A stretch of 64,000 bases of DNA, from assembly GCF_055900595.2 (NCBI RefSeq), contig NZ_CM148325.1. One strand, given 5' to 3'. The notes under the pieces were generated by a model. That model ran no database searches. It worked only from the letters and a program-made list of their open reading frames with translations, and was not told the origin of the DNA. This document shows, one piece after another, positions 25,823-25,950 of the stretch. Each line of letters starts with the position of its first letter. Positions within the stretch are counted from its first letter, which is position 1. A program made the translations under genes and the position numbers.

Positions 25823-25950
25823 ACATTATCGGTAGGGGACGTACTGGTAGTCTGTAAACTAAACCGACTGGGGCGCAGTATGCGGCATCTTGCCGTGCTG
25901 TTGGAGGAGCTGTGAGAACGTGGTATTAACTTTCGTGCTCTGACTCTACC
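25823..25950 (+). pseudogene. pinH: Decayed serine recombinase (Pin/Hin-type DNA invertase) fragment
   Basis: Plus-strand frame reads GDVLVVCKLNRLGRSMRHLAVLLEEL*ERGINFRALT, matching the Pin/Hin motif GDTLVVWKLDRLGRSMKHL...ERGINFRSLT, with an in-frame stop and no intact N- or C-terminus. Confidence 0.6.

What the first reader, a model, noticed from the sequence alone, without database searches (positions are those of the whole stretch)
25823..25950. Relic of a Pin/Hin-type DNA invertase between the two island genes
The fragment retains the conserved serine-recombinase core but has an in-frame stop and lacks intact ends. Invertases normally flank invertible segments that switch surface or tail-fibre genes, and its position directly upstream of the giant autotransporter raises the possibility of a former phase-variation switch.
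Basis: partly seen in the sequence, partly recalled or inferred. Interest (0 to 1): 0.35.

Follow-up and report, generated by a model that had tools for sequence, protein, structure and literature searches.

The report
Dead invertase gene fragment (pinH)
This is the already-annotated E. coli pseudogene pinH, a roughly 47-codon dead middle piece of a phage-type DNA invertase lying among prophage and IS debris next to the tmRNA gene, and nothing links it to switching of the neighbouring autotransporter.

Summary
Window 25796-25936 (+) encodes residues ~42-88 of a Gin/Pin/Hin-type serine DNA invertase (Pfam Resolvase 43.3 bits, E=5e-11; Gin structure E=1.7e-14; 70-74% aa and 76-82% DNA identity to tail-fibre invertases of Fels-2, P2-like and other coliphages). 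It has a TGA at 25913-25915 and lacks both ends.

The catalytic serine, E-helix and HTH domain are all absent, and DRLGR has become NRLGR. It is the known K-12 pseudogene pinH: same position between ypjA/ehaD and ypjCB, annotated by RefSeq as an incomplete recombinase, and collinear in 3002 of 5426 complete E. coli genomes.

The 5' edge is fused to an internal IS3 transposase fragment (25706-25800). A Fels-2-like prophage end plus a decayed 23-nt ssrA core lies 170 nt upstream (25544-25629). The 3' edge abuts a 351-nt autotransporter leader that is also found, without any recombinase, at the ycgV paralog.

I found no hix/gix-like sites, no meaningful inverted repeats, no inversion variant and no longer allele. 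Allele differences are almost all non-synonymous. This is an ordinary, known relic.

The parts
25796..25936 (+). Invertase relic proper (pinH): codons ~42-88 of a ~185-aa Gin/Pin/Hin-family serine invertase
   Evidence: Pfam PF00239 43.3 bits. Gin PDB 4m6f residues 42-91. 76.4% DNA identity to Fels-2 invertase 7530-7391 and 81.6% to phage vB_EcoM-606R2. RefSeq annotates it as 'recombinase family protein, incomplete'.
25937..25971 (+). Possible degenerate, frameshifted continuation of the relic (to about codon 100)
   Evidence: 16/20 nt match to Fels-2 invertase nt ~284-303, offset by ~5 nt. 14/1000 (window) and 3/1000 (K-12 allele) shuffles reach the score. Weak.
25913..25915 (+). In-frame TGA stop, specific to this lineage (TGC in K-12 and others; Arg codon in intact invertases)
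25706..25800 (+). Internal fragment of an IS3-family transposase (orfB; nt 466-561 of the IS3 orfAB CDS), fused to the relic's 5' edge with ~5 nt of overlap (A[A/G]GCC)
   Evidence: 81% over 97 nt, E=9e-21, to the annotated IS3 transposase in L007. Frame-3 translation GVPRLTDELRAQSYHFS against IS3 GAPRLTDELRAQGYPFN.
25748..25915 (+). 55-aa chimeric ORF: out-of-frame IS3 fragment followed by the invertase fragment up to the TGA; a mechanical ORF, not a gene
   Evidence: P0004. No sign of purifying selection between alleles.
25544..25606 (-). Remnant of the ogr-side end of a Fels-2-like (P2-family) prophage, including the phage-supplied ssrA terminator hairpin
   Evidence: 90.6% to Fels-2 positions 83-20. 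93.8% to the sequence next to ssrA in strain 13P477T. Terminator-like hairpin at 25597-25570 on the minus strand.
25607..25629 (-). Decayed 23-nt copy of the ssrA 3' end (displaced att core)
   Evidence: Alignment A3: alleles H240 and K-12 keep G(T/G)TG-(A/G)GCTGGC(G/A)GTG.CTGAA against ssrA GGTGGAGCTGGCGGGAGTTGAA. The length equals the annotated Fels-2 attP core.
25982..26332 (+). Leader/upstream module of the autotransporter, paralogous to the ycgV/ymgJ upstream region; not part of the relic
   Evidence: 89.7% over 351 nt to L009 4001-4350, near minCDE, with no recombinase there.
26353..31035 (+). AIDA-type autotransporter adhesin YpjA/EhaD
   Evidence: Pfam AIDA, Pertactin and Autotransporter domains. 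The K-12 ortholog is annotated ypjA 'adhesin-like autotransporter YpjA/EhaD'.
31196..31557 (-). ssrA (tmRNA), the integration hot spot that explains the debris
   Evidence: ARAGORN; Rfam RF00023 291 bits.
24055..25425 (+). ypjCB (DUF5507/DUF5508), intact here; the left-hand 'island gene'
23155..23230 (+). tRNA with CAT anticodon, annotated tRNA-Ile (ileY) in RefSeq

Best explanation
The feature is the E. coli pseudogene pinH, an inert internal fragment (about residues 42-88, possibly to ~100) of a Gin/Pin/Hin-family serine DNA invertase of the kind that flips tail-fibre segments in temperate myoviruses.

Shown: it cannot encode a recombinase. The Ser nucleophile region, the E-helix and the C-terminal HTH DNA-binding domain are all missing, the conserved Asp of DRLGR is Asn, and this lineage adds a TGA. 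It sits in a graveyard of elements that targeted the ssrA (tmRNA) hot spot. Upstream lie a displaced Fels-2-like prophage end with a decayed ssrA core and an internal IS3 fragment fused directly to the relic. Downstream, the separately inherited autotransporter leader module begins within ~10-45 nt.

Inferred history: a prophage carrying a tail-fibre invertase was integrated at or near ssrA. An IS3-family element landed nearby. Illegitimate deletions (about 5 nt of microhomology at the IS3/invertase joint) removed the invertase 5' end together with the invertible segment, and another deletion or replacement removed its 3' end. The remnant was then inherited vertically and has drifted neutrally in the roughly 55% of E. 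coli genomes that keep it.

It has no present function and no demonstrable past connection with the autotransporter.
For: Identity as an invertase fragment.

[quoted passage not shown] The window is collinear with K-12 at 89-95% identity.

Missing catalytic and DNA-binding parts.

IS3 joint. Fels-2-like att remnant plus ssrA core.

ssrA-targeting P2-family phages that carry such an invertase exist: the Fels-2 record holds both matches, and several other phage records show two matching places.

Neutral decay: window against K-12 shows 13 non-synonymous and 1 synonymous difference in 47 codons, and ~10% divergence like the non-coding flanks. Alleles carry R->W, D->N, L->P and stop changes.

Same truncated form everywhere.
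Against: The donor element is not identified. The best DNA identity to any intact invertase is only 82%.

The relic and the Fels-2-like end are in the right orientation but the wrong order for a single prophage, so at least two integration events, or a rearrangement, must be assumed.

The 160 nt between ssrA and the autotransporter are not Fels-2-like (one search found no other matches).

Absence of function is inferred from sequence only; no expression data were examined.
Confidence: 0.9

Rival explanations
1. Former phase-variation switch: the invertase once inverted a promoter or segment controlling the adjacent giant autotransporter.
For: Only adjacency (the relic ends ~400 nt upstream of the ehaD start) and the general fact that invertases control surface structures.
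Against: No crossover-site-like sequences and no significant inverted repeats. The region is collinear in 3002 genomes. The autotransporter leader is a module shared with ycgV, where no recombinase is present, and the relic lies outside it. In relatives the invertible segment is on the invertase's 5' side, away from ehaD. The closest relatives are phage tail-fibre invertases. The relic is welded to IS3 and prophage debris.
Confidence: 0.03
2. Relic of a transposon or plasmid resolvase (Tn3/gamma-delta type), or of another serine recombinase, rather than of a phage invertase.
For: The Pfam domain is shared by resolvases and invertases, and thousands of plasmid records match at under 60% identity.
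Against: All hits at or above 65% identity are invertases (Fels-2, P2-like, Cin, pinE, hin). Only Gin, and no resolvase, passes E<=1e-3 among solved structures. DNA-level homology of 74-82% is to phage invertase genes next to tail-fibre genes.
Confidence: 0.04
3. Exapted fragment: the DNA, or the 55-aa chimeric ORF, is retained because it contributes a small protein, an antisense transcript or regulatory sequence for ehaD.
For: It is retained in 3002 of 5426 genomes with constant length, and short ORFs are called in some annotations.
Against: Allele differences are almost all non-synonymous, and stop and start positions differ between alleles (52-88 aa products). Promoter-like sites are at the shuffled expectation (2 against 2.4). 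No Rfam family matches. A 1-nt indel in the K-12-type alleles falls inside the 131-aa antisense ORF. Retention is explained by linkage to ypjCB and ehaD.
Confidence: 0.03

Closest known systems
pinH pseudogene of E. coli K-12 (between ypjA and ypjB/ypjC, distal to the CP4-57 prophage at ssrA)
   Same: Same chromosomal position, same truncated extent and same flanks. It is ~90% identical and collinear, so this is the ortholog.
   Different: The allele here has TGA where K-12 has TGC, plus 13 further substitutions in 47 codons. This strain has no CP4-57 between ehaD and ssrA, and ypjCB is intact.
Tail-fibre DNA invertases of P2-family and other temperate myoviruses (Fels-2 STM2702, P2 from O157:H43 T22, pro483, SEN8, vB_EcoM-606R2); prototypes Gin (Mu), Cin (P1), Pin (e14), Hin
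   Same: 65-74% aa and 74-82% DNA identity over residues ~42-88, with the same central motif VVxKLxRLGRS...ELxERGINFR.
   Different: Those are ~185-193-aa enzymes with a Ser nucleophile, an E-helix and an HTH domain, and they sit beside inverted crossover sites and tail-fibre cassettes. The relic has none of these.
Tandem or decayed integrative elements at the ssrA (tmRNA) hot spot (Fels-2 in Salmonella, CP4-57 in K-12)
   Same: A phage-end plus ssrA-core junction survives at 25544-25629, and the real ssrA lies 5.6 kb away with foreign DNA in between.
   Different: No integrase or other phage gene remains in this strain's interval. The contents are an adhesin gene, an IS fragment and the invertase fragment.

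Membership tests
Serine recombinase catalytic domain (Pfam PF00239 Resolvase) | Significant match to the family profile | tested here: met
   43.3 bits against a cut-off of 23.3, E=5.2e-11, but only profile positions 43-100 of 145.
Serine recombinase catalytic domain (Pfam PF00239 Resolvase) | Catalytic serine nucleophile near the N-terminus (YVRVST motif, Ser9/10) | tested here: not met
   Homology starts at codon ~42. The upstream DNA is an IS3 fragment with no invertase similarity (774/1000 shuffles reach the score).
Serine recombinase catalytic domain (Pfam PF00239 Resolvase) | Conserved acidic/Arg motif D-R-L-G-R | tested here: not met
   It reads NRLGR in all six alleles aligned, against DRLGR in Fels-2, 606R2 and Gin.
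Hin/Gin/Pin/Cin DNA invertase subfamily | Closer in sequence to invertases than to resolvases | tested here: met
   Top hits are invertases at 65-74% aa identity, most plasmid hits are under 60%, and only Gin is found among PDB sequences at E<=1e-3.
Hin/Gin/Pin/Cin DNA invertase subfamily | E-helix and C-terminal HTH DNA-binding domain (residues ~100-190) | tested here: not met
   Nothing beyond residue ~88-100. The downstream sequence is the autotransporter leader module.
Hin/Gin/Pin/Cin DNA invertase subfamily | Pair of inverted 26-bp crossover sites (hix/gix/pix/cix) bounding an invertible segment | tested here: not met
   No site within 3 kb of the relic. Whole-window hits are at chance level, and the Fels-2 site gives 0 hits with up to 3 mismatches.
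Hin/Gin/Pin/Cin DNA invertase subfamily | Fis-dependent recombinational enhancer in the 5' part of the invertase gene | not testable with these tools
   There is no tool for Fis sites. From my own knowledge of Hin/Gin the enhancer lies in the 5' coding region, and the first ~123 nt of the gene are absent here.
Hin/Gin/Pin/Cin DNA invertase subfamily | Observed inversion polymorphism of the adjacent DNA | tested here: not met
   25430-26360 is found as a single collinear piece in 3002 genomes, and five fetched loci are collinear over 22-32 kb. Population-level long reads were not examined.
pinH locus of E. coli K-12 | Position between ypjA/ehaD and ypjB-ypjC (ypjCB), near ileY and ssrA | tested here: met
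pinH locus of E. coli K-12 | Orthologous sequence with the same breakpoints | tested here: met
   90% identity over 25500-26000 with only one 1-nt indel, and the same IS3 and invertase fragment limits.

The most novel reading that the evidence does not exclude
The relic and its IS3 partner are kept not only by linkage but because the fused DNA supplies something to the ypjA/ehaD locus, such as an upstream regulatory or nucleoid-protein-binding region or an antisense promoter. In that case a dead invertase would have been co-opted as adhesin control DNA.
Probability: 0.03. Interest if true: 0.3.

Novelty: already known. Interest (0 to 1): 0.07.

Why it matters
It matters little. The fragment is a named, annotated pseudogene (pinH) present in over half of complete E. 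coli genomes.

The useful outcome is negative: the neighbouring adhesin YpjA/EhaD should not be suspected of invertase-driven phase variation on the basis of this relic.

There is also a modest descriptive gain. The relic's edges are now explained by an IS3 internal fragment on the 5' side and the autotransporter leader module on the 3' side. A displaced Fels-2-like att junction shows that the interval between ileY and ssrA is a stack of decayed ssrA-targeting elements.

Tried and rejected
- Inverted-repeat and crossover-site searches. I used a generic hix/gix pattern, the AAACCNNGGTTT core and the real Fels-2 site. Nothing turned up near the locus.
- Search for a longer or intact allele. The protein database returned only 52-88-aa E. 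coli fragments. That tool needs shared exact words, so distant intact relatives were not expected to appear.
- Exact 21-mer scan of one genome per species. It gave only two contaminant-looking contigs (in a Terrisporobacter assembly and a Planococcaceae MAG) that are E. coli-like. It therefore gave no dating outside E. coli, and the GTDB E. coli representative evidently lacks the exact 21-mer.
- Single-prophage model (relic and att end from one Fels-2-like prophage). Rejected as stated because their order is inverted relative to Fels-2, although their orientations agree.
- Invertase homology upstream of 25796. I had thought 'LNC' might align with Pin's 'ALNCAGC'. Rejected: that stretch is an out-of-frame IS3 fragment.
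- Rfam scan and promoter scan of the region. Rfam found only tmRNA and tRNA, and promoter-like sites are at the shuffled expectation.
- First literature search for 'pinH'. It was swamped by unrelated words; pairing it with ypjA found the K-12 gene order.

Full report
**1. What is in the sequence**

Frame 1 of window 25700-25960 reads ...LMNCVLRVTTSAHNRGSRPGQNKRLRTLSVGDVLVVCKLNRLGRSMRHLAVLLEEL*ERGINFRALTLPIFA. A mechanical 55-aa ORF spans 25748-25915.

The peptide matches the Pfam Resolvase N-terminal domain (PF00239) at 43.3 bits (cut-off 23.3, E=5.2e-11). Only profile positions 43-100 of 145 are covered. Among all PDB sequences only the Gin DNA invertase (4m6f, 3uj3) is hit, at residues 42-91 of 193 with E=1.7e-14.

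tblastn against phage genomes gives 65-74% identity to annotated DNA invertases of Fels-2, SEN8, P2 (O157:H43 T22), Chris1, YP3 and P1 Cin. Against plasmid records the best hits are pinE/hin-type genes.

At the DNA level the homology to phage invertase genes is sharply bounded at 25795/6-25936/7. Identity is 76.4% to Fels-2 and 81.6% to vB_EcoM-606R2. A weak, frameshifted continuation to ~25971 is possible. No invertase similarity exists upstream of 25796.

**2. What the fragment lacks**

Aligned with the 185-aa Fels-2 invertase, the fragment corresponds to residues ~42-88. Three parts are absent: the N-terminal YVRVST segment carrying the serine nucleophile, the E-helix, and the C-terminal helix-turn-helix domain.

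The conserved KLDRLGR motif is KLNRLGR in every allele examined.

The TGA at 25913-25915 replaces the Arg codon of ELRERG. K-12 DH1 and three other alleles have TGC (Cys) there, so the stop is a late event in this lineage.

**3. It is pinH**

The 931-nt interval 25430-26360 is found at 80% coverage or more, as one collinear piece, in 3002 of 5426 complete E. coli genomes. In every listed case it lies under a feature annotated 'recombinase family protein'.

In the nearest strain (99.9% identity) and in K-12 DH1, RefSeq describes this feature as 'incomplete; missing N-terminus and C-terminus'. It sits between ypjCB and the autotransporter, which K-12 annotates as ypjA 'adhesin-like autotransporter YpjA/EhaD'.

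[quoted passage not shown]' (PMC10652928).

The window is collinear with K-12 across 22-31.2 kb at 89-95% identity. The exception is that K-12 carries CP4-57 genes (ypjF, yfjZ and others) beyond ypjA, whereas here ssrA follows directly.

**4. Anatomy of the surroundings**

- **25706-25800: IS3 fragment.** This stretch is an internal piece of an IS3-family transposase gene. It corresponds to nt 466-561 of the orfAB CDS, at 81% identity and E=9e-21. The frame-3 translation GVPRLTDELRAQSYHFS compares with IS3 GAPRLTDELRAQGYPFN. It overlaps the invertase homology by ~5 nt (A[A/G]GCC). I read this as a deletion joint, because neither partner ends at a natural terminus (inference). The first 16 residues of the '55-aa ORF' are therefore out-of-frame IS3 sequence.
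- **25544-25606: prophage end.** This stretch is 90.6% identical to Fels-2 positions 83-20, the ogr-side end of that P2-family prophage. It includes a terminator-like hairpin on the ssrA strand.
- **25607-25629: decayed ssrA core.** The prophage end is followed by a decayed copy of the last ~23 nt of ssrA, which is clearer in the K-12 and H240 alleles. The length equals the annotated Fels-2 attP core. The functional ssrA is at 31196-31557 on the minus strand. This is what a displaced att junction looks like when a later element integrates into a lysogen's ssrA (inference).
- **25982-26332: autotransporter leader.** This stretch is 89.7% identical to the region upstream of the paralogous autotransporter locus (ymgJ/ycgV, next to minCDE). 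No recombinase is present there. The relic ends 10-45 nt before this module.

**5. Tests of the phase-switch idea**

- **Crossover sites.** The Fels-2 crossover sites (TTCATAAACCTCGGTTTAGGC and its partner) were located from that phage's 204-nt inverted repeats. The window has no match to this site with up to 3 mismatches. The AAACCNNGGTTT core occurs three times with one mismatch, at 6324, 22259 and 36021, against 2.46 expected. A generic hix/gix pattern occurs once, at 42367, against 0.31 expected.
- **Inverted repeats.** Inverted repeats in 25000-31700 are short (14-22 nt, 77-93% complementary) and none brackets a plausible promoter segment.
- **Inversion variants.** No strain examined shows an inverted arrangement.
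- **Geometry.** In Fels-2 and 606R2 the invertible tail-fibre cassette adjoins the 5' end of the invertase gene. Here the autotransporter is on the 3' side.
- **Longer alleles.** All alleles retrieved from the protein collection are 52-88-aa fragments with the same breakpoints.

**6. Evolutionary state**

Between this allele and K-12 there are 13 non-synonymous differences and 1 synonymous difference in 47 codons. Divergence is ~10%, similar to the adjoining non-coding and IS-derived DNA (9-16%).

Start and stop positions of the called ORFs differ among alleles. This is the pattern of an unconstrained pseudogene inherited vertically since before the divergence of the major E. coli lineages (inference).

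**7. Most likely history (inferred)**

A temperate myovirus carrying a Gin/Pin-type tail-fibre invertase once lay in the ssrA-proximal interval. P2-family phages that both target ssrA and carry such an invertase exist (Fels-2).

IS3 insertion and successive deletions then left only an internal invertase piece. That piece was welded to an internal IS3 piece on one side and to the ehaD leader module on the other.

The relic and the Fels-2-like end have the orientation expected for an ssrA prophage but the reverse order. They therefore probably derive from different integration events.

**8. Verdict**

This is a known, non-functional relic. The invertase identification is right and the switch hypothesis is not supported. 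The novelty rating is 'already known' and the interest is low.

Noticed in passing
window 25544-25629: A Fels-2-like prophage end (with the ssrA terminator hairpin) followed by a decayed 23-nt ssrA 3' core, 5.6 kb from the real ssrA. It looks like a displaced att junction and implies stacked integrations at the tmRNA hot spot.
   Followed up: yes
window 25706-25800: A 95-nt internal fragment of an IS3-family transposase gene, fused to the invertase relic. It supplies the out-of-frame N-terminus of the 55-aa ORF.
   Followed up: yes
window 25982-26332; L009 4001-4350: A 351-nt upstream leader of ypjA/ehaD is ~90% identical to the leader of the ycgV paralog and carries short ymgJ-like ORFs (for example 26178-26270, labelled 'ATPase' or 'hypothetical' in RefSeq). 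It is strikingly conserved for non-coding DNA and may be a shared regulatory region.
   Followed up: partly
L008 4878-5192 (phage vB_EcoM-606R2): This phage's annotated 'DNA invertase' is itself only 104 aa. It loses homology to Fels-2 at about the same codon (~88) where the solid DNA-level homology of pinH to phage invertase genes stops, and it shares Cys in ELCE with the K-12-type pinH alleles. This could be coincidence or a shared truncated ancestor.
   Followed up: partly
window 24055-25425 and 20343-22595: ypjCB (456 aa, DUF5507+DUF5508) and a 750-aa ORF at the position of the alpha-amylase C-terminal-domain pseudogene of K-12 DH1 and the 99.9% strain are both open here. Both are annotated pseudogenes in K-12 DH1, and the second also in the 99.9% strain. 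The 750-aa ORF's identity rests on position only.
   Followed up: no
L001 12209-16931: In the closest strain (Z0117EC0005) the autotransporter is cut at the equivalent of window 29639. It is followed by an HTH regulator and two tyrosine recombinases, so another element has inserted into ehaD there.
   Followed up: no
L010, L011: Contigs in a Terrisporobacter mayombei assembly (coverage 0.74) and a Planococcaceae MAG are 90-92% identical to this E. coli locus. They are probably E. coli contamination in those public assemblies.
   Followed up: partly
window 31036-31210: This strain has no CP4-57 prophage: ehaD is separated from ssrA by only 160 nt. Homology with K-12 continues 15 nt into the ssrA 3' end, which in K-12 is the distal att copy of CP4-57.
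   Followed up: partly
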